Below, piece after piece: positions 4,386 through 62,870 of a stretch of 64,000 nucleotides of DNA. The stretch is from positions 295,944-359,943 of the IMG/VR virus record IMGVR_UViG_3300009784_000001, one strand, 5' to 3'. The stretch's first letter is position 1. The number at the start of each line of letters is the position of its first letter. The notes under the pieces were generated by a model. The model was not told where the DNA came from. It saw only the letters and a list, made by a program, of their open reading frames with translations, and ran no database searches. The position numbers and the translations under genes are program-made. The DNA comes from a virus. Lineage: Duplodnaviria; Heunggongvirae; Uroviricota; Caudoviricetes.

Positions 4386-4442
4386 AGAAAACATACAGCA
4401 TTTTTTATCAATTCAACCATAGGAAAGAAAAAGTGTTTTCTG
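4386..4442 (+). ncRNA. CAGCA-motif small RNA
   Basis: AGAAAACA-TACAGCA...TGTTTTCT-G; ends nearly identical to 10262..10315. Confidence 0.7.
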
Positions 4443-4829: not shown

Positions 4830-4958
4830 AGGAAAGGTACAGCAAATTGAATTAAAATTCTATTTACAATTTTACTATGAGGAAGAGAGCTTTCATCTAA
4901 AATAGGTGGAAAACAACTCTCAAAGAAATGAGTACTTCTCTAAAAACTCTCTTTCCTG
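4830..4958 (+). ncRNA. CAGCA-motif small RNA (long variant)
   Basis: AGGAAAG-GTACAGCAA...CTTTCCT-G with internal hairpin TTTCATCTA/TAGGTGGAAA. Confidence 0.6.
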
Positions 4959-5553: not shown

Positions 5554-5639
5554 GGCTATGTGGCGTAATTGGGAGCCGCAGGGGACTTAAAATCCCCTCT
5601 CCTGTAAAGGAGGTACAGGTTCAAGTCCTGTCATAGCTA
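5554..5639 (+). tRNA. tRNA-Leu(TAA)
   Basis: GGGGA-CTTAAAA-TCCCC; long variable arm. Confidence 0.9.
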
Positions 5640-5640
5640 C

Positions 5641-5761
5641 GATGAGAATTAGCTCAGTTGGTAGAGCAAAGGTATTATAAAAAGTTTCTTGAATAAGAAA
5701 TGTTCAGCAATATTTAAAAATGGGAACTTTATGTCAGCAGTTCGAGCCTGCTATTCTCATC
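5641..5761 (+). ncRNA. tRNA-like RNA whose anticodon loop is replaced by a ~55-nt CAGCA-motif insert
   Basis: GATGAGAAT/ATTCTCATC acceptor stem, canonical D arm, AGCAG-TTCGAGC-CTGCT T arm; insert shares GAAATGTTCAGCAATAT with 4217..4338. Confidence 0.75.
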
Positions 5762-10261: not shown

Positions 10262-10315
10262 AGAAAACATACAGCATTTTTTCAATTTTCAATGGGAGAA
10301 AAAAAGTGTTTTCTG
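10262..10315 (+). ncRNA. CAGCA-motif small RNA
   Basis: AGAAAACA-TACAGCA...TTTTC-AATGGGA-GAAAA...TGTTTTCT-G. Confidence 0.7.
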
Positions 10316-10324
10316 AAAAAAATA

Positions 10325-10406
10325 AGGAAAGATACAGCAATGTTAAATGGTTAAAAGAAAATTCTGTAAAAATTTTTTGAAAAGGTTCAAATCCTATTCT
10401 TTCCTG
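10325..10406 (+). ncRNA. CAGCA-motif RNA enclosing a degenerate tRNA-Tyr-like body
   Basis: AGGAAAGA-TACAGCAA..AATGGTT..AAATT-CTGTAAA-AATTT..AGG-TTCAAAT-CCT..TCTTTCCT-G. Confidence 0.7.
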
Positions 10407-31855: not shown

Positions 31856-32099
31856 AAAAATATATTGTAACATATTATAATCCTCATGGGCAATGTCAAA
31901 ATATAATATATCTTAAAGCTAAAAGTTATGGAAATGCTGCTGCTATTTTATTTAGATATTTAAATAAATGCTTTCATCATAACTATAAAGATATGACAGA
32001 TAATGAAGCAAAAGAATATGTTGGTGAATGTGATAGTGATATTTGTATCAGTGAGTTTAGAGAGCCTAAATTTGAAACAGAAGAAGAATTGTTAAGTTA

Positions 32100-52177: not shown

Positions 52178-52687
52178 ATGAATTTTCAAAAAAAAGAAAA
52201 ATTAAACAACATTAATGAAGATTTGAAATACAATAGAGAATTGTATTTGGTTACAGAAAGTGGTTTACAAAAAACAAATTATTATAATGCTCAAAAAGAA
52301 GCTAATAATCTTAATTTAGATTTAGTTCAAATATCTACAAAAGATAATTTGCCTTTATGTAAAATGTTCAATTATGAAAAGTTCTTATATGAGCAAAAGA
52401 AGAATAAAAATAAATCAACTAAACAAGAAATAAAAGAAATAAAATTATCTTCTTCTATTGCAAAAAATGATTTATTAATTAAAGCAAAAGCTGCGAAAAG
52501 ATTTATTGATGATGGAGATAAAATAAAAGTTACTCTTCAGTATAAAGGTAGAGAAAATGCAAATAAAGAATTTAACAAAAAATCTTTACTTGAATTTATA
52601 GTATTAACAGAAGATTTTGCAATACCAGAATCTATTCCCAAGGAGGAAGGAAATAAAAGTATTGTAATTTTAAAACCAAAAAAATAG
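52178..52687 (+). CDS. infC: translation initiation factor IF-3
   Basis: INE, LDLVQI, YEKFLYE, KEIKL, GDKIKV, KGRE. Confidence 0.85.
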   Translation: MNFQKKEKLNNINEDLKYNRELYLVTESGLQKTNYYNAQKEANNLNLDLVQISTKDNLPLCKMFNYEKFLYEQKKNKNKSTKQEIKEIKLSSSIAKNDLLIKAKAAKRFIDDGDKIKVTLQYKGRENANKEFNKKSLLEFIVLTEDFAIPESIPKEEGNKSIVILKPKK

Positions 52688-52713: not shown

Positions 52714-53568
52714 ATGATTAGACCATTAAATACCAAAAATCAAGCATATACTCCAAAAAATGAATTATTAAATTTATATTTTAAAGATATAAATGATTTC
52801 AAAGTGTTAAGCGCAAATGAAGAATTTCATCTTTTTGAAGCAATTAAAAATGGGGATGAGAACGCTAAAAGAAAAATAATTGAATGTAATCAGAAATTTG
52901 TAGTCTCAGTAGCAAAGAAATTTTCAACTTCTGATACTTTACTAGATTTAATTAATGAAGGGAATATTGGATTAATAGAAGCAATTGATGAATTTGATAA
53001 TTACAGAGGAATAAAGTTTATTAGTTTTGCTGTACATTATATTCATAGAGAAATATATAATTATCTAAAAAATAATAGTTTAGTTCGACAAACTAATTTA
53101 GGGAAGACATATAATATTCTTAATAAAGTGAAAAGTGCTTTTTTCGTTCAGAATGGAAGAATGCCATCTGAACAAGAAGTGATTGATATAATAAAGAAAG
53201 AATATGATATTGATATAATTGATAAATCAGATGTATATGATTTGAAAGTTTCATCAATTAATGATTTTGAAGAAGATAATCCAAATTGTAATGAAAATGA
53301 ATTTAATAAATATTATTTTTATGAAAATAGTTCCAATATAAAATATGAACGAGAAGAGAATAGAAACAATATTAATGAATTAATAGATGTTTTAACTCCT
53401 GAAGAATTTTATATTCTTAAATTATATTATGGTATTGATTGCTGGCGAGAGTTTTCTTTAGATGAAATTTCTAATGTAACTGGTTATACTTCTGAAAGAA
53501 TTAGGCAACTTAAAGATGATGCTATTGATAAAATGAAAATGTGTAATAAAATAAAAAAAATTGTATAA
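52714..53568 (+). CDS. RNA polymerase sigma-70 factor (RpoD/RpoS-like)
   Basis: FVVSVAK, DLINEGNIGLIEA, KFISFA, SERIRQ. Confidence 0.9.
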   Translation: MIRPLNTKNQAYTPKNELLNLYFKDINDFKVLSANEEFHLFEAIKNGDENAKRKIIECNQKFVVSVAKKFSTSDTLLDLINEGNIGLIEAIDEFDNYRGIKFISFAVHYIHREIYNYLKNNSLVRQTNLGKTYNILNKVKSAFFVQNGRMPSEQEVIDIIKKEYDIDIIDKSDVYDLKVSSINDFEEDNPNCNENEFNKYYFYENSSNIKYEREENRNNINELIDVLTPEEFYILKLYYGIDCWREFSLDEISNVTGYTSERIRQLKDDAIDKMKMCNKIKKIV

Positions 53569-53989: not shown

Positions 53990-54763
53990 ATGAATAAATA
54001 TAAAATAAAAACATTGCAAACTAGAGGATCAAATCATGATTTAAGAACAGAGGATGATTTTATGATATATGAAGATGAGAAATATATAATTTGCTCTGTT
54101 TTTGATGGGTGTAGTAGTGGATATCGTTCTGATATTTCAAGTTATAAACACAAAGAATTTTTATTAGAAGCGATAGATGAATCATTAATTTATGAATATG
54201 ATAATTTTGACGCAATTATTCGATATGTTATAAATAAAAAAATAAGAATAAATTTTGAGGATATTATAGAAGAATTGATTTCAAGATTATTTCATAAATT
54301 ATCTGAAATGAATTATAAAGATAATGAAGAAATGTTATCAACAATTCTTTTACTTGTTATTAATAAAGAAACAGATGAATATGAAATAGCTTTTTTTGGT
54401 GATGGAGTAAGTTTTGTGAATGGAGAATATACAAATGTTCATGATCCAAATGGTGATACTGTGTGGTATTTAAGTACAGTAAAAGCAAATGAATTTAGAA
54501 AATATTATTCTCAATCTACAAAATTAAAAGGACAAGGTATTGAAAATATTTGTATATCCACAGATGGGATTGATACATTCAAAAACAAATATGGTCAATT
54601 AGTAGATGCTAGAAATTATTTTTGTGATAATACTCAATTTGTGAATTTAGATAATCAATTGAAAAGATTGTATAATGTTTTTACAAAAGGGTTAAATAAT
54701 GAGGAAAAAATGTCTTGTATAAACCAAGATGATTTTACTATTATAAAAATTGAGAAAATATGA
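53990..54763 (+). CDS. PP2C-like protein phosphatase
   Basis: G..H....ED, VFDGCSS, GDG, STDG, DDFT. Confidence 0.8.
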   Translation: MNKYKIKTLQTRGSNHDLRTEDDFMIYEDEKYIICSVFDGCSSGYRSDISSYKHKEFLLEAIDESLIYEYDNFDAIIRYVINKKIRINFEDIIEELISRLFHKLSEMNYKDNEEMLSTILLLVINKETDEYEIAFFGDGVSFVNGEYTNVHDPNGDTVWYLSTVKANEFRKYYSQSTKLKGQGIENICISTDGIDTFKNKYGQLVDARNYFCDNTQFVNLDNQLKRLYNVFTKGLNNEEKMSCINQDDFTIIKIEKI

Positions 54764-56074: not shown

Positions 56075-57760
56075 ATGTTAAAACTAGTTGATGATAACAG
56101 TAAAGAATTTTTTCTTGATGAAGCAAAAGAAATAGCAAGAGGAGGAGAAGGGAAACTTATCCCTGTAAAAAGTTATCCTAATTATATCGCTAAAATCTAT
56201 CTTGATAAAGGTAGAACTATTTCTCTTCAAAGAATACAGGAATTATCTCCATTACCTAATAATTTATTCTTAAAACCATTATTTAGATTATCAGGAATAG
56301 AAAATGGTTTTGTAATGGATAAATTGGATGGTTCTAAATATTATCCATTAGATTCATTGTATTCTTCCTCGTTTGCAATGAAAAGAAATTTGCCAAATAA
56401 TTATAAAGAAAAAATATCAAGAACAATTATTGAAGGTGTAAATATTGCTCATAATAATAACATTATAATTGGTGATTTGAATCCTTTTAATATTATGATT
56501 GAAGATAGTTGTGAAACTAAATTCATTGATGTAGATTCTTATGAAACTAAATCATATAAACATAATGATAAATTACTTGAAAATATAAGGGATTATTACT
56601 TTGGTGGAAAAGTTACACAGGATAGCGATTATTTTGCTCTGGCTGTCATTATATTTAATTTATTAACTGGAATACATCCATACAAAGGATTTCATTCTGT
56701 GTATGGAAATAACCTTAAAGATAGAATGATTAATAATCTTTCTATTTTATCTAAAGAAAGTAAAAATATAAAAATACCTAAATTTTATCAGCCATTACAA
56801 GATACTAATATAGTTGATATGTTTAAAGAAATATTTGATTTGAATAAAAGATTTCTAATAACTATGGATGGTAAAACTGTTGCAACTGTTAAATTTACTG
56901 GTACAGTTATATCTGATAAGTTATTATTTACAGAATTATTTAATATTATGAATAATCAAAGTTCTGAACAGATTATGGAAGTTTCTGTTTCCAATTCACT
57001 TTTGAATATCAGAACAAATCAACACAGTTATTTATATTCAACACCAAATAAAGGAATTATTACATCTGAAAATAAGATAGTTCCTGATGTAAATATTATA
57101 TTAACTGAAAAGAATATATATGGCTTTAAAGATGGAAGTTTGAAATTATATAATAAAATAACAAAATGTTTTGATGAAATTAAAAACATTAAATTATATA
57201 AAGATGAAATATATTTAATTAAACAATATGAAAATATTCTTCTTATAATTACCAAAAATGATAAATTATATAAACTTTATTTAGATGAAATATTTAATGG
57301 TTCTATACAATTTACTGTTTCAGATGTTTATTATGAATCATTTAAGAAAAATGAAGGATTGTATCAAAGCATTGGAGTTAATGCTATTATATATTATAAT
57401 AATGGCAAAGAACTTAATAATATAACTATCCAAGGAAATAATATTAAAGATGTTATTCAAAAAGATAATATAGGTATTTTAACTGTTAAGAATAATAATA
57501 AAATAGAATATCAATTATTTAGAATAGATAAACATAATAATATTAAAACATCTGTTTTACCTGAAAAATATCCGTTTACTTCCAATGATAAGTTTGTTAT
57601 ATTACTAAGAGATGATAAAATATCTTTTATAGATAAAGAAACATTGCAAGAGGTAACATCCTTTGAAATTAATGTACAAGGAGATTATGATATATTAACA
57701 ACAAATGCTGGAATTATATTATATAGTAAAGAGAAGGTTTTATTAGTTAATACAAAATAA
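56075..57760 (+). CDS. Ser/Thr protein kinase
   Basis: RGGEG, AKIY, IGDLNPFN, IDVDS, SDYFALAV, GIHPY. Confidence 0.85.
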   Translation: MLKLVDDNSKEFFLDEAKEIARGGEGKLIPVKSYPNYIAKIYLDKGRTISLQRIQELSPLPNNLFLKPLFRLSGIENGFVMDKLDGSKYYPLDSLYSSSFAMKRNLPNNYKEKISRTIIEGVNIAHNNNIIIGDLNPFNIMIEDSCETKFIDVDSYETKSYKHNDKLLENIRDYYFGGKVTQDSDYFALAVIIFNLLTGIHPYKGFHSVYGNNLKDRMINNLSILSKESKNIKIPKFYQPLQDTNIVDMFKEIFDLNKRFLITMDGKTVATVKFTGTVISDKLLFTELFNIMNNQSSEQIMEVSVSNSLLNIRTNQHSYLYSTPNKGIITSENKIVPDVNIILTEKNIYGFKDGSLKLYNKITKCFDEIKNIKLYKDEIYLIKQYENILLIITKNDKLYKLYLDEIFNGSIQFTVSDVYYESFKKNEGLYQSIGVNAIIYYNNGKELNNITIQGNNIKDVIQKDNIGILTVKNNNKIEYQLFRIDKHNNIKTSVLPEKYPFTSNDKFVILLRDDKISFIDKETLQEVTSFEINVQGDYDILTTNAGIILYSKEKVLLVNTK

Positions 57761-59901: not shown

Positions 59902-60603
59902 ATGAGTAATTATGATGAAACTTATGGCGGTTCTTTTGGTATAGGAATTAATAATTTTGATCCAACTAATATAACCGCAGATGAAGTGATAGGTATCACA
60001 TTTGTAATTGATAAGAGTGGCTCTGTAAATAGATATATTTCAGATCTAAATGATAATTTAAATGGCTTTTTACAAGAAATGGGACATAGCCATGTAGCAG
60101 ATAAAATATTATGTCAAATTTTAGAGTTTGATGATGATGTAAAAGTATTAAATGGTTTTCAACCTATAGCTGATATTAAGCCTTTTAATATTCAACCAGG
60201 AGGAATGACTAGTTGTTTTGATGCTTGCGCAAAAGGTCTTGAAAATACAATTCAATATCGCCAAAATCTTGAACAACAAGGTATAACAGTTAAAAATCTT
60301 GTATTTATTATTACTGATGGTGAATCTAATGCTGATAGAAAATATGCAGCAAGTGATGTTAAGAAACTGGTAGATGATTTATATACCAATGAATCCAATT
60401 TTGGTTCTTTTTCCATTATACTTTTTGGTTTAGGAGATGAAACTAACTTCAAAAGAGTAGGAAAAGAAATGGGAATTAGAGATGAAATGATTGCCACTAT
60501 TGGAATTACTGCTAAAGAAATTCGTAAAATGATTGGTTTTATTTCTTCTTCTGTTTCAAGTAGTGGTTCAGGAGGTGCAATGCCAACTGCTGTCATTTTT
60601 TAA
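59902..60603 (+). CDS. vWA (TerY-like) protein
   Basis: DKSGS MIDAS; GMT; ITDG. Confidence 0.85.
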   Translation: MSNYDETYGGSFGIGINNFDPTNITADEVIGITFVIDKSGSVNRYISDLNDNLNGFLQEMGHSHVADKILCQILEFDDDVKVLNGFQPIADIKPFNIQPGGMTSCFDACAKGLENTIQYRQNLEQQGITVKNLVFIITDGESNADRKYAASDVKKLVDDLYTNESNFGSFSIILFGLGDETNFKRVGKEMGIRDEMIATIGITAKEIRKMIGFISSSVSSSGSGGAMPTAVIF

Positions 60604-60717
60604 ATATTCTAATATAAATAAAATTCCATATATTAAAAAATATATGGAATTTTTAACATAGAATATTTGGTTATTAAAAATAATATTTGTATTTTTGTAT
60701 TGAAATATTAAATAAAA

Positions 60718-61221
60718 ATGGGATTAGATATTAGTGCTTATAAATTAGGCAAGAAAAGAAATGATGTAAACAGGGACGAAAATTATGAAGATAATGTAGT
60801 TTATATATTTACATTGAATTTTAAACCAGTTAAACATTTAACACAATTTGAAGAAGGCTTCTATGAAATAGAAGAAGAACTTAAAATACCTGATTTTCAT
60901 TTATCATATAGTGGTTATAATTATTTCAGAAATGAAATATGCAAAATGGCTTTGGGAGTAGAAGCCTCTGAAGTATGGAAAAATATTGAAGAATATTTAG
61001 ATAAACCTTTTGTTGAATTTATCAACTTTGCAGATAATGAAGGATCTTATGATTATATAGTGGCTGAGAAATTATTGAAAGATTTTACTGATTATCAAGA
61101 AAAAGCAAAAGAAATATTTAATAAGAAAAATGGTTTAGATTTTTATTATAATGAATATTTAAAATACATAGATATTTTAAAAGAGGTTGTAAAAGATAAA
61201 GGTATAGTTTTCTATACCTAA
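60718..61221 (+). CDS. hypothetical protein
   Basis: MGLDI N-terminus; SYSGYN.FR; FADNEG. Confidence 0.65.
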   Translation: MGLDISAYKLGKKRNDVNRDENYEDNVVYIFTLNFKPVKHLTQFEEGFYEIEEELKIPDFHLSYSGYNYFRNEICKMALGVEASEVWKNIEEYLDKPFVEFINFADNEGSYDYIVAEKLLKDFTDYQEKAKEIFNKKNGLDFYYNEYLKYIDILKEVVKDKGIVFYT

Positions 61222-61229
61222 AAAAAAAG

Positions 61230-61268
61230 AGAAATTAAACAGCAATAATAAATTAAAATAAATTTCTG
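61230..61268 (+). promoter_or_regulatory. CAGCA RNA motif abutting the DUF2828 start codon
   Basis: AGAAATT-AAACAGCAA...AATTTCT-G-ATG. Confidence 0.7.
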
Positions 61269-62870
61269 ATGACAAATCAATTTTTAAACAATGTACAATC
61301 AAAAGATTGTTACACAGACAATGGTGCTTTAAGCAATTCAAGTACAGGTAATATATTAGTTAATCAATTTGGAATTGCAGCTTCTCAAAGAGGAAGAAGT
61401 ATTGATGAAGTATTTAATGATCAAGCTATCCTATTTGGTTATGATCCAGAATTATCTTTAAAATTTGTTTTCTATTTGAGAATGATTACAAGAAATGTTA
61501 ATGTTAATGGTGAAGCTATTGGTAAAATTCAAAAGGGACAAGGTTCTAGAGATGAATCTTTTAAAAGACTATTATGGTATGCTGTAAATCAACCAAAAAT
61601 GTTTTATGAAAATTTATGGCTATTACCAGTTGTAGGGTCTTGGAAAGATATATGGAATATTTTATTTTTAGCTTATCAAAATAATATTAATTTAGATAAA
61701 AATTTTATTTTTGGAATTATTCAAGGTGGGATGAGTTCTGATAATCAAAAAGATTTAATCAAAAAATTCTTACCTCGCATTAGATCAAATAAAAAATGTA
61801 CAACTGAATGGGCAAAATATACTAATTCTTTAGCAAAAGAATTTATTCAAGCAGTTGGGTGGACTGAAAAAGATTATAGAAATTTTAAATCAACAGGAAC
61901 AGCTCATGAATTTCAAAGATTGATATGTTCTGGTAAATATGATTTATTAAAATTCAATTTAATTCCTGGAAAGGCTTTATTTAATTTAGCAAAAGGTAAA
62001 TTCTTATCTAATCATAATTTGGAAAAGAAATTTGAACAATGGATTTCTAAACAACCTGTTGCTAAATTTACAGGATATGTTCATGAATTGGGTCAAGAAG
62101 TTAATAATAGTGGCAGTAATTTACCTTTATATAAAAAATTAACATTTGATAAACAATTCACTGGTTTAGTTGAATTAGGAAAAAAATCAGCTAATGAAGG
62201 CATATTAGGAAAAAGGAATGTAATTTGTGCTATTGATAGAAGCGGCAGTATGACAGAAGGAATAGGAAATACAACTTGTATGAATATTGCTGAATCTTTA
62301 GGAATTTATTTTGCTTCCTTGATGGAAGGTGCTTTTCATAACTGGGTAATTAAGTTTTCATCAAGAAGCGAATGGGTACAATTACAAGGTGATAGTTTTG
62401 TTGATAGAAAAAAAAGTATGCAATGGGGAGATTGCCCTTCAAATACTGATTTTCAATCTGTTATTGATTCAATTGTTAGAGTAAAATTACAAAATCCTAA
62501 TATTGCTGAATCAGAGTTTCCAAATACATTAATTGTAGTTTCTGACATGCAATTTGATTATTGTGGGTATGGTTCAACTAGACAAGATGAAAAAACTAAT
62601 CAGCAATTAGCAGTTCAAAAATTATCTCAAGTATTTAGTAAAGAATTTGTAGATAATTTTGTATGGATTTGGTGGCAAGTGAATGGTCAAAAGAAAGATT
62701 TTCCTCAAACTATGAATGAAGGAGGAGGATATGTAATTTCTGGCTTTGATGGTGCTATTATTACTACTTTATTAGGAGGCGCAGTTAAACCAAAAGGTGA
62801 AAAACCTGATATGTTGGATATGGTTAAAGAGGCTCTTAATCAAGAGGTTTTAAATTTGATAAAATTATGA
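61269..62870 (+). CDS. DUF2828-like protein (TROVE/Ro60-like helical domain plus vWA)
   Basis: TDNGA...STG, GQG.R, GSWKD, KFLPR, DRSGSM, NTDFQ, SDMQFD, SGF. Confidence 0.8.
   Translation: MTNQFLNNVQSKDCYTDNGALSNSSTGNILVNQFGIAASQRGRSIDEVFNDQAILFGYDPELSLKFVFYLRMITRNVNVNGEAIGKIQKGQGSRDESFKRLLWYAVNQPKMFYENLWLLPVVGSWKDIWNILFLAYQNNINLDKNFIFGIIQGGMSSDNQKDLIKKFLPRIRSNKKCTTEWAKYTNSLAKEFIQAVGWTEKDYRNFKSTGTAHEFQRLICSGKYDLLKFNLIPGKALFNLAKGKFLSNHNLEKKFEQWISKQPVAKFTGYVHELGQEVNNSGSNLPLYKKLTFDKQFTGLVELGKKSANEGILGKRNVICAIDRSGSMTEGIGNTTCMNIAESLGIYFASLMEGAFHNWVIKFSSRSEWVQLQGDSFVDRKKSMQWGDCPSNTDFQSVIDSIVRVKLQNPNIAESEFPNTLIVVSDMQFDYCGYGSTRQDEKTNQQLAVQKLSQVFSKEFVDNFVWIWWQVNGQKKDFPQTMNEGGGYVISGFDGAIITTLLGGAVKPKGEKPDMLDMVKEALNQEVLNLIKL

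What the first reader, a model, noticed from the sequence alone, without database searches (positions are those of the whole stretch)
61230..62870. The same CAGCA motif sits on the start codon of the DUF2828/TROVE-like gene
About 50 kb from the other copies, AGAAATT-AAACAGCAA...AATTTCT-G ends on the base before the ATG at 61269. The protein has a helical N-terminal region and a vWA MIDAS (DRSGS), the layout of Ro60/Rsr, which is known to bind tRNA-mimicking Y RNAs. Inference: DUF2828 is the cognate binder, represses its own translation through this site, and forms RNPs with the motif RNAs, making a phage Ro/Y-like system linked to tRNA handling or repair.
Basis: partly seen in the sequence, partly recalled or inferred. 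Interest (0 to 1): 0.85.

Follow-up and report, generated by a model that had tools for sequence, protein, structure and literature searches.

The report
Partner-RNA handle on Ro60-like gene's start
A giant gut phage places a minimal copy of the short "handle" that marks its small tRNA-region RNAs directly against the start codon of its Ro60-shaped protein gene, and about a quarter of related phages do the same, so the protein probably senses its own messenger through its partner-RNA binding site.

Summary
Window 61230-61268 reads AGAAATT-AA-ACAGCAA-(15 nt)-AATTTCT-G and ends on the base before the ATG at 61269. It matches a covariance model of the handle (E 8e-6). In the whole 360-kb phage genome, only two small RNAs in the tRNA region match better.

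The gene product (533 aa, DUF7788 plus weak DUF2828, MIDAS DRSGS) models as a full-length Ro60-like protein: the ten best solved structures are all Ro60/TROVE, Z 13-17.5. No Pfam TROVE match was found.

Among 79 clusters of homologues, 19 (plus three close relatives read by eye) carry the handle in the leader, ending 0-5 nt before the ATG or looping over it. It usually begins 9 nt after a Bacteroidetes-type -7 promoter box. All 25 handles that abut an ORF start abut this gene. Leader copies are the shortest handles in their genomes.

Best reading (about 0.45): a translational operator that mimics the partner RNAs, so that free protein clamps a weak stem at the start codon. Binding and repression are not shown.

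This scan has already reported the handle/DUF2828 pairing on other DNA. The start-codon arrangement is the addition here. The handle is absent from Rfam, and the papers I could search do not describe it.

The parts
61230..61236 (+). 5' strand of the handle stem (AGAAATT)
   Evidence: Pairs 7/7 with 61261-61267. It aligns to stem columns 2-8 of alignment A2, where all 7 pairs show double changes across 19 handles.
61237..61245 (+). Two-nucleotide linker (AA) plus the core ACAGCAA, predicted single-stranded
   Evidence: ACAGCA is invariant in all 19 aligned handles. It is the only exact AAACAGCAA in the window.
61246..61260 (+). 15-nt A/U-only loop with no cargo; this makes it the shortest handle in the genome
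   Evidence: Total length is 39 nt, against 54-129 nt for the tRNA-region copies. Leader copies are also the shortest handles in G006, G007 and G009.
61261..61268 (+). 3' strand of the stem (AATTTCT) plus the conserved unpaired G; occupies positions -8 to -1 of the gene
   Evidence: The CUG end lies 0-5 nt from the ATG in 23 leader copies; two more loop over the ATG.
61269..62870 (+). Gene for a 533-aa Ro60-shaped protein (DUF7788 vWA domain, weak DUF2828 N-terminal domain)
   Evidence: Pfam; PHROG 850 'RNA-binding protein', 9.6e-53; AF2 model pLDDT 80.8; Ro60/TROVE structures are the top hits. N3 and F5 are invariant, so the ATG at 61269 is the true start.
62235..62249 (+). MIDAS motif DRSGS (residues 323-327)
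60690..60697 (+). Bacteroidetes-type -7 box (TATTTTTG) ahead of gene 60718-61221; the likely promoter of a bicistronic mRNA that carries the handle internally
   Evidence: I saw no TAnnTTTG box by eye between 61000 and 61268. This is an inference.
60718..61221 (+). Upstream 167-aa ORF with no family match, probably co-transcribed; also present upstream in relative L159
4386..4442 (+). Handle RNA in the tRNA region (candidate partner RNA)
   Evidence: R1 E 1.2e-8.
4830..4958 (+). Handle RNA with a long insert, starting 4 nt after tRNA-Met
   Evidence: Strict descriptor; partial R1 hit; tRNA coordinates.
10262..10315 (+). Handle RNA in the tRNA region
   Evidence: R1 E 3.5e-10.
10325..10406 (+). 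Handle RNA with tRNA-like cargo
   Evidence: Strict descriptor; weak tRNA hit at 10342-10397.

Best explanation
The 39-nt element at 61230-61268 is a minimal, cargo-free member of the phage's ACAGCAA-handle RNA family, built into the leader of the gene for a Ro60-shaped DUF2828/DUF7788 protein.

Proposed mechanism. The protein binds the handle, meaning the terminal stem plus single-stranded ACAGCAA plus the 3' CUG. The same handle closes the small RNAs of the tRNA region. When protein exceeds those partner RNAs, it also binds the copy in its own mRNA. This clamps an otherwise weak A-U stem whose 3' strand covers positions -8 to -1, and so blocks 30S entry on an mRNA that has no Shine-Dalgarno sequence and depends on an open A-rich leader. 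The result would be negative translational feedback by mimicry of the partner RNA.

Shown: the element is real and belongs to the family; the protein has a Ro60-like fold; the handle's position against the start codon is conserved and specific to this gene.

Inferred: that the protein binds the handle, that binding affects translation, and that the effect is repression.
For: 1. Family membership. R1 gives E 8e-6, and this is one of three hits in 360 kb. The strict descriptor gives 5 hits against 0.13 expected.
2. The stem is supported by covariation. All 133 cells pair, all 7 pairs show double changes, and slid controls pair 31-58%.
3. Ro60-like fold across both domains. Foldseek E is 3e-7 to 2e-3 for 13 Ro60/TROVE chains. 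VIA gives Z 13.2-17.5 over 378-433 residues; the next hits are vWA-only at about Z 10.
4. The handle sits against the start codon in 19 of 79 homologue clusters and in relatives at 84%, 76% and 66% identity. On the quick tree these fall in at least four separated lineages.
5. Tight geometry. The spacing from CUG to ATG is 0, 1, 2 (x3), 3 (x16) or 5 (x2) nt. The spacing from the -7 box to the handle is 9 nt in 12 loci. The handle therefore makes up essentially the whole 5' UTR.
6. Specificity. Of 47 model hits, the 25 that abut an ORF start all abut the DUF2828 ORF. Every hit at E<=0.01 in the viral loci is on the gene's strand.
7. Leader copies are the shortest handles in their genomes, and longer ones lie elsewhere. 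This fits an operator that competes with cargo RNAs.
8. The stem alone is weak, -2.9 kcal/mol. The phage's genes lack SD sequences and have A-rich leaders. A protein clamp could therefore act as a switch.
Against: - There is no binding or expression data.
- 54 of 79 homologue clusters have no handle at the gene.
- In L035, L037, L038 and L080, minimal handles lie 40-120 nt upstream. In L037 they are clear of a good AGGAGG site. Gene-proximal minimal handles therefore do not always overlap the initiation region and may serve another role.
- The window's 0-nt spacing is an outlier: its relatives have 2-3 nt.
- The rows used for the covariation count were chosen with a stem filter, so 100% pairing is partly by construction.
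- The direction of regulation is unknown.
- In this window the handle appears to be internal to a bicistronic mRNA rather than at its 5' end.
Confidence: 0.45

Rival explanations
1. A partner RNA derived from the 5' UTR. The leader handle would be a minimal Y-like RNA, co-transcribed with the gene and cut out after CUG. It would supply the protein with an RNA in cis and at matched dosage, as yrlA/yrlB are made from the rsr operon. It would have no regulatory effect on translation.
For: - Y RNA genes are typically adjacent to Ro60 genes (PMC4201824).
- Handles in the tRNA array begin a few nt after a tRNA and must be released by processing.
- Free-standing minimal handles occur 40-120 nt upstream in L037, L038 and L080.
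- The -7 box lies 9 nt before the handle, which puts the handle at the transcript's 5' end like a small RNA.
Against: - A merely adjacent RNA gene needs no fixed 2-3 nt distance to the ATG, yet that distance is kept in about 20 distinct loci.
- Cutting at CUG would leave a near-leaderless mRNA.
- In L065/L116 the stem encloses the start codon and the first codons, which cannot be excised without destroying the mRNA.
Confidence: 0.2
2. A cis element with another effect of the same protein. Binding to the leader would stabilise, localise or activate the mRNA, for example by holding the A-rich loop open as a landing pad for the ribosome, rather than repressing it.
For: The positional and specificity evidence is the same as for the best explanation. 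The loops are A-rich, like ordinary leaders in this phage.
Against: Nothing here settles the direction of the effect. The 3' strand occupies positions about -11 to -3 (-8 to -1 in this window), next to the start codon and within the region a 30S subunit would normally cover. From general knowledge of operators, this more often represses.
Confidence: 0.15
3. The handle is recognised by a different factor, such as a host or phage RNase or an RNA-modifying enzyme that processes the tRNA-array RNAs. Under this reading, its presence in the DUF2828 leader reflects co-regulation, not binding by DUF2828.
For: The handle RNAs are embedded in tRNA arrays. The conserved 5' A and 3' U(G) flanks could mark cleavage sites. 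No binding data exist.
Against: The handle travels with the DUF2828 gene in very different phages. It abuts the gene, lies upstream or downstream of it, or lies elsewhere in the same genome in 4 of 5 genomes whose gene has no handle and in 4 of 5 genomes that carry a leader copy. It abuts no other ORF in the loci.
Confidence: 0.12
4. Chance resemblance in AT-rich intergenic DNA.
For: The hairpin is no more stable than shuffles (z -0.4). The exact 9-mer AAACAGCAA is expected about once per window. A 16-mer with 3 mismatches is not enriched.
Against: The full descriptor is expected 0.13 times per window, and it falls on the start of the one Ro60-like gene. The same arrangement recurs in 19 or more independent protein clusters, with changed stems and loops.
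Confidence: 0.02

Closest known systems
Ro60 (Rsr, TROVE + vWA) with Y RNAs: bacterial and mycobacteriophage YrlA (Rfam RF02553; Chen et al. 2014, PMC4201824) and Thermus phage phiLo Ro60 with Yrl1/Yrl2 (PMC12135203; PDB 9l5y)
   Same: - The protein has a helical N-terminal region followed by a vWA domain with a MIDAS, and Ro60 structures are its best matches.
- The partner-RNA candidates close their 5' and 3' ends in a short stem beside a conserved single-stranded motif. Some carry tRNA-like cargo.
- The RNA genes sit next to the protein gene or in the same genome.
   Different: - No Pfam TROVE match for any of 28 homologues or anywhere in the genome. Identity to Ro60 structures is 8-14%.
- The handle motif is ACAGCAA, not GNCGAAN0-1G or GGUCCGA.
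- No YrlA or Y_RNA hit at threshold.
- To my knowledge, a copy of the partner-RNA module set against the protein's own start codon has not been described for Ro60.
Translational autoregulation by mimicry of the cognate RNA: E. coli ThrRS on the tRNA-like thrS operator, ribosomal proteins L1/S8/L20 on rRNA-like leader sites, T4 gp32 and RegA, MS2 coat protein on the replicase start hairpin (established knowledge, not tested here)
   Same: A short copy of the protein's normal RNA target overlaps the initiation region of its own mRNA. The stem is weak without protein. Cargo RNAs elsewhere could titrate the protein.
   Different: No binding or repression has been shown. The host type has no SD sequence, so the occluded element is the start-proximal leader rather than an SD. 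In this window the site is internal to a probable bicistronic transcript.
Class I RNAs of dictyostelid social amoebae (Kjellin et al. 2021, PMC7919456)
   Same: Both have a short stem joining the 5' and 3' ends, a conserved unpaired motif directly after the 5' strand, and a variable remainder. The positions the paper reports as near-invariant in its 11-nt motif (T3, C6, C9, A10, A11) fit the phage ..ACAGCAA. Several phage copies read CTTACAGCAA.
   Different: Class I RNAs are eukaryotic, cytoplasmic and bound by the RRM protein Rnp1A/Cibp, and they were reported as unique to Dictyostelia. No link to a DUF2828 protein was tested here. The full 11-mer is from my memory, not from the text I read.

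Membership tests
Ro60 / TROVE (Pfam PF05731) | Sequence match to the TROVE domain | tested here: not met
   None of 28 homologues matches TROVE at E<=1. No match in the whole genome. No PDB sequence hit.
Ro60 / TROVE (Pfam PF05731) | Helical (HEAT-like) N-terminal domain followed by a vWA domain, as in solved Ro60 structures | tested here: met
   The top 10 VIA rows are all Ro60/TROVE, Z 13.2-17.5, 378-433 residues aligned across model residues 8-532. The Foldseek top 13 are likewise Ro60/TROVE. TM is only 0.44-0.57 and rmsd 4.5-6.2 Å.
Ro60 / TROVE (Pfam PF05731) | MIDAS motif in the vWA domain | tested here: met
   DRSGS at 323-327. D323, S325, S327, T393 and D426 are invariant.
Ro60 / TROVE (Pfam PF05731) | Binds a partner ncRNA through a helix formed by its 5' and 3' ends | not testable with these tools
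   Only genomic association is available.
Y RNA / YrlA (Rfam RF00019, RF02553) | Match to the Rfam covariance model | tested here: not met
   No hit at gathering score. For 61180-61320, nothing relevant at E<=10. One sub-threshold YrlA hit at 5614-5667 (20.7 bits against 69) lies over tRNA-like sequence.
Y RNA / YrlA (Rfam RF00019, RF02553) | Ro-binding motif GNCGAAN0-1G (bacteria) or GGUCCGA (vertebrates) in the terminal stem | tested here: not met
   The handle has AG-stem-NN-ACAGCAA. The motifs are as quoted in PMC4201824.
ACAGCAA-handle RNA family (defined in this scan; model R1) | A 6-8 bp terminal stem with covarying sequence, 1-3 nt, ACAGCA(A/U), a variable loop, the 3' strand, then U/G | tested here: met
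   36.8 bits, E 8e-6, full-length match to model positions 1-54. The stem pairs 7/7.
DUF2828 / DUF7788 (Pfam PF11443, PF25043) | Pfam matches above the curated cut-offs | tested here: met
   DUF7788: 73 bits against a cut-off of 27.1. DUF2828: 26.3 bits, just under its cut-off of 29, for this protein, but 27 of 28 homologues match it at E<=1.
Autoregulatory translational operator | The site overlaps the initiation region of the regulator's own mRNA | tested here: met
   The 3' strand covers -8 to -1 here. The CUG end is 0-5 nt from the ATG in 23 loci, and the stem loops over the ATG in 2 more.
Autoregulatory translational operator | The gene product binds the site and changes translation | not testable with these tools

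The most novel reading that the evidence does not exclude
The handle (terminal stem + ACAGCAA + CUG) is the universal address tag of a previously undescribed Ro60-like RNP system, widespread in jumbo phages of gut Bacteroidetes. The leader copy is its natural minimal binding site, used as a feedback sensor of free protein. The same tag in dictyostelid Class I RNAs would then point to a shared, ancient recognition module and a still unidentified Ro-like reader in amoebae.
Probability: 0.12. Interest if true: 0.85.

Novelty: new variant of a known kind. Interest (0 to 1): 0.62.

Why it matters
If the reading holds, three things follow.
- It gives a Ro60-like protein an autoregulatory circuit built from its partner-RNA module, which I have not seen described for Ro60.
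- It supplies a natural 39-nt minimal binding site. That makes the protein-RNA pairing of a large uncharacterised family directly testable by gel shift, toeprint and reporter assays. The family has 3081 representative clusters at E<=1e-3 and is annotated only as DUF2828/DUF7788.
- It is an example of how translation might be gated in Bacteroidetes-type mRNAs without Shine-Dalgarno sequences, where few operators are known.

Tried and rejected
- Single-protein scan of viral contigs: no relatives found. This was solved by using alignment A1.
- PDB sequence search with the profile: only one chance-level hit.
- Rfam at gathering and at lax E-values: nothing for the handle. Nothing for the 330-nt spacer in L160 either.
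- Pfam TROVE and RtcB searches of the whole genome: none. NCBIfam: none.
- Literature search for DUF2828: five unrelated plant and tardigrade papers.
- Loose motif searches (9-mer; 16-mer with 3 mismatches) are not enriched and were dropped in favour of the structured descriptor.
- A loose stem descriptor gave many coding-region false positives and was replaced by model R1.
- The careful ML tree did not finish; the quick tree was used.
- Complex prediction was not used because it does not take RNA.
- Terminator reading rejected: no U-run follows the stem.
- Promoter reading of the handle rejected: the -7 box lies upstream of it, and the same motif closes RNAs inside tRNA arrays.

Full report
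**The observation**

The window is the right-hand 64 kb of a 359,943-bp phage genome with direct terminal repeats. It is 26% G+C and carries a large tRNA array at 4.6-17 kb.

At 61230-61268 the + strand reads AGAAATT-AA-ACAGCAA-(15 nt of A/U)-AATTTCT-G. The ATG of a 533-codon ORF follows immediately at 61269. The coordinates and wording of the finding are correct.

The other copies are at 4386-4442, 4830-4958, 10262-10315 and 10325-10406. All have the layout A + 6-7 bp stem, two nucleotides, ACAGCA(A/T), variable interior, complementary strand, U, G.

**Is it more than chance?**

Short-string tests are uninformative. The 9-mer is expected about once per window, and the 16-mer with three mismatches is not enriched.

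The hairpin is thermodynamically ordinary: -2.9 kcal/mol, z -0.4.

The structured descriptor (6-bp stem, NN, ACAGCA, loop of up to 130 nt, exact complement, TG) gives five hits, all on the + strand. Second-order Markov simulations give 0.13 per window.

I built covariance model R1 from 19 handles taken from this window and from homologue loci. It scores the site at 36.8 bits (E 8e-6). In the whole genome only three sites reach E<=0.01: two in the tRNA region and this one.

**The protein**

- Pfam gives DUF7788 (73 bits, residues 319-512) and a sub-threshold DUF2828 match (26.3 bits, residues 16-146).
- PHROGs places it in phrog_850, 'RNA-binding protein'.
- It has more than 1,000 homologues and 3,081 representative clusters at E<=1e-3.
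- The MIDAS motif DRSGS is at residues 323-327, with D323, S325, S327, T393 and D426 invariant.
- N3 and F5 are also invariant, which fixes the start codon at 61269.

An AlphaFold2 model from a 28-sequence alignment has pLDDT 80.8 and pTM 0.76. Foldseek's best 13 PDB matches are all Ro60/TROVE proteins, including Thermus phage phiLo Ro60, Deinococcus Rsr and Xenopus and human Ro60. E-values run from 3e-7 to 2e-3 and TM from 0.44 to 0.57 for the best matches.

VIA-align gives Z 13.2-17.5 over 378-433 residues spanning both domains. The next rows are vWA-only at about Z 10. The Ro60 shape is therefore supported.

Membership of TROVE by sequence is not supported. No homologue matches PF05731 at E<=1, and the genome holds no TROVE or RtcB.

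**Homologues**

An alignment-driven scan returned 72 viral loci and 80 metagenome loci. Reading the 140 nt upstream of each start and searching with R1 gave the following.

1. Of 79 protein clusters at 90% identity, 19 have a handle ending within a few nucleotides of the ATG. Five have handles 40-300 nt upstream, one has them just downstream, and 54 have none in the flanks.
2. Three closer relatives of the window protein were read by eye and also keep the leader handle. They are 84% identical (over the 275 residues matched), 76% and 66% identical. Their loops are diverged, one has a changed stem (AGAAAAAT/ATTTTTCT), and the spacer is 2-3 nt.
3. L012/L013 keep the stem and CUG but have UAAGCA in place of ACAGCA.
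4. The distance from the 3' G to the ATG is 0 (this window), 1, 2 (three loci), 3 (sixteen) or 5 (two). In L065/L116 the stem closes over the ATG and the first four codons.
5. A Bacteroidetes-type -7 box (TAnnTTTG) ends exactly 9 nt before the handle in 12 loci and 13-20 nt before it in seven others. In those phages the 5' UTR is therefore essentially the handle.
6. Of 47 R1 hits, 25 abut an ORF start, and in all 25 that ORF is the DUF2828 homologue. All hits at E<=0.01 in the viral loci lie on the gene's strand.
7. On a quick ML tree, the start-codon arrangement occurs in at least four lineages separated by long branches. The window's nearest sampled relative on that tree (L004, 55% identity) lacks it.

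**Stem covariation**

On the 19-row alignment, all 133 cells pair and all seven pairs show changes on both sides. The covariation score is 0.84 against 0.30 in shuffles, and slid registers pair 31-58%.

One caveat applies. The rows were chosen with a stem filter, so the pairing percentage is partly built in. The diversity of stem sequences is not: GAAATT, GAAAAC, GGAAAC, GATTTC, GGGGACT, GGCTAC, AGTTAC and others.

**Genome-level company**

Five genomes were checked whose DUF2828 gene has no handle beside it. Four hold handles elsewhere, for example three in tandem at 214.4-214.8 kb in the genome of L004.

Type-A genomes hold further, longer handles elsewhere:
- G006: two more
- G007: four more
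- G009: four more
- G008: none at E<=0.01

G010, whose leader copy is the degenerate L012 form, has one handle elsewhere.

Wherever several handles are present, the leader copy is the shortest:
- This window: 39 nt against 54-129
- G009: 47 against 70-93
- G007: 43 against 64-79
- G006: 52 against 60-63

**Context in this window**

Genes here lack Shine-Dalgarno sequences and have A-rich leaders. Several are preceded by TAnnTTTG boxes, so the host is probably a Bacteroidota member.

The 47-nt gap between the stop codon at 61219-61221 and the ATG has no such box. The nearest one is TATTTTTG at 60690-60697, ahead of the 167-aa ORF at 60718-61221.

The handle is therefore probably internal to a bicistronic mRNA and would act only on the second cistron. 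This is an inference.

**Mechanism**

I consider a translational operator that mimics the partner RNAs the most likely reading (about 0.45). The grounds are:
- The 3' strand and CUG occupy -8 to -1.
- The stem is weak alone.
- The geometry is held to within a few nucleotides in about 20 distinct loci.
- The site is specific to this gene.
- Cargo-bearing handles elsewhere could titrate the protein.

This is the logic of ThrRS/thrS, the ribosomal-protein operators and MS2 coat protein (established knowledge). None of the steps of binding, occlusion or sign of the effect is shown.

Two observations point against a purely occlusive role. In L037, L038, L080 and L035, minimal handles sit 40-120 nt upstream. 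In L037 they are clear of an AGGAGG site. These look like separate small-RNA genes next to the protein gene, as Y RNA genes sit next to rsr.

The rivals are a UTR-derived partner RNA (0.2), a non-repressive cis role (0.15), recognition by another factor (0.12) and chance (0.02).

**Comparison with what is known**

The closest system is Ro60 with Y RNAs (YrlA in bacteria and mycobacteriophages, PMC4201824; phiLo Ro60 with Yrl1/2, PMC12135203).

Shared features:
- the protein shape;
- an RNA whose ends form the recognition stem;
- occasional tRNA-like cargo;
- genomic adjacency.

Differences:
- no TROVE sequence signal;
- a different recognition motif (ACAGCAA rather than GNCGAAN0-1G);
- no Rfam match;
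- the copy on the protein's own start codon.

The handle also resembles the stem-plus-11-nt motif of dictyostelid Class I RNAs. The positions reported as near-invariant (T3, C6, C9, A10, A11) fit ..ACAGCAA. I did not test any evolutionary link.

**Novelty and prior notes**

This scan has already reported the handle/DUF2828 pairing on this genome and on several other genomes. I re-derived the pairing independently here.

What this report adds is the start-codon arrangement, its geometry, its frequency and its specificity. I found nothing on DUF2828 function in the searchable literature. I file it as a new variant of a known kind: a Ro/Y-like RNP with an operator built from the partner-RNA module.

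Noticed in passing
window 52178-52687, 52714-53568, 53990-54763, 56075-57760: The phage encodes a full-length translation initiation factor IF3 (IF3_N + IF3_C), a sigma-70-type factor, a PP2C phosphatase and a protein-kinase-like protein within 10 kb upstream of the Ro60-like gene.
   Followed up: no
window 59902-60603; L160 1154-1852: A separate small vWA protein (233 aa) lies two genes upstream of the Ro60-like gene. It recurs in the same position in the 66%-identical relative L160.
   Followed up: no
L014, L016, L017, L001, L038 loops; L033, L034, L007, L008 leaders: A semi-conserved AAGTTTAAC-like element lies about 15-25 nt before the ATG. It occurs inside handle loops and also in the leaders of homologues that have no handle. 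Its meaning is unknown.
   Followed up: partly
L160 2076-2340: A stretch of about 270-330 nt between a small ORF and the handle is non-coding and visibly richer in G+C than its surroundings. It has no Rfam match at E<=1.
   Followed up: partly
L069 906-990 and window 10325-10406: A crAss-like-clade phage (33% protein identity) carries a handle RNA whose cargo, an AATGGTT D-loop-like element and a GGTTCAAGTCC T-arm-like element, resembles that of the window's copy.
   Followed up: no
L093 1501-2325 (+) and 2448-2485 (-): The closest relative found (84% identity over the 275 residues matched) lies on a contig where the 5' end of the gene, with its handle, is on the opposite strand to the rest. 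This is an inversion or an assembly chimera.
   Followed up: partly
window 61201-61218: A perfect 7-bp hairpin GGTATAG-TTTT-CTATACC lies at the very end of the upstream ORF. It is followed by TAA and a run of A, so it is not terminator-like. It is absent from relative L159.
   Followed up: no
window 31897-31949 (-): A weak R1 match (23.3 bits, E 0.012) on the minus strand. It was not examined.
   Followed up: no
L037 2369-2463; L080 415-540: Two minimal handles sit in tandem 40-120 nt upstream of the gene. In L037 a clear AGGAGG ribosome-binding site follows them, which suggests a host that uses SD sequences.
   Followed up: partly
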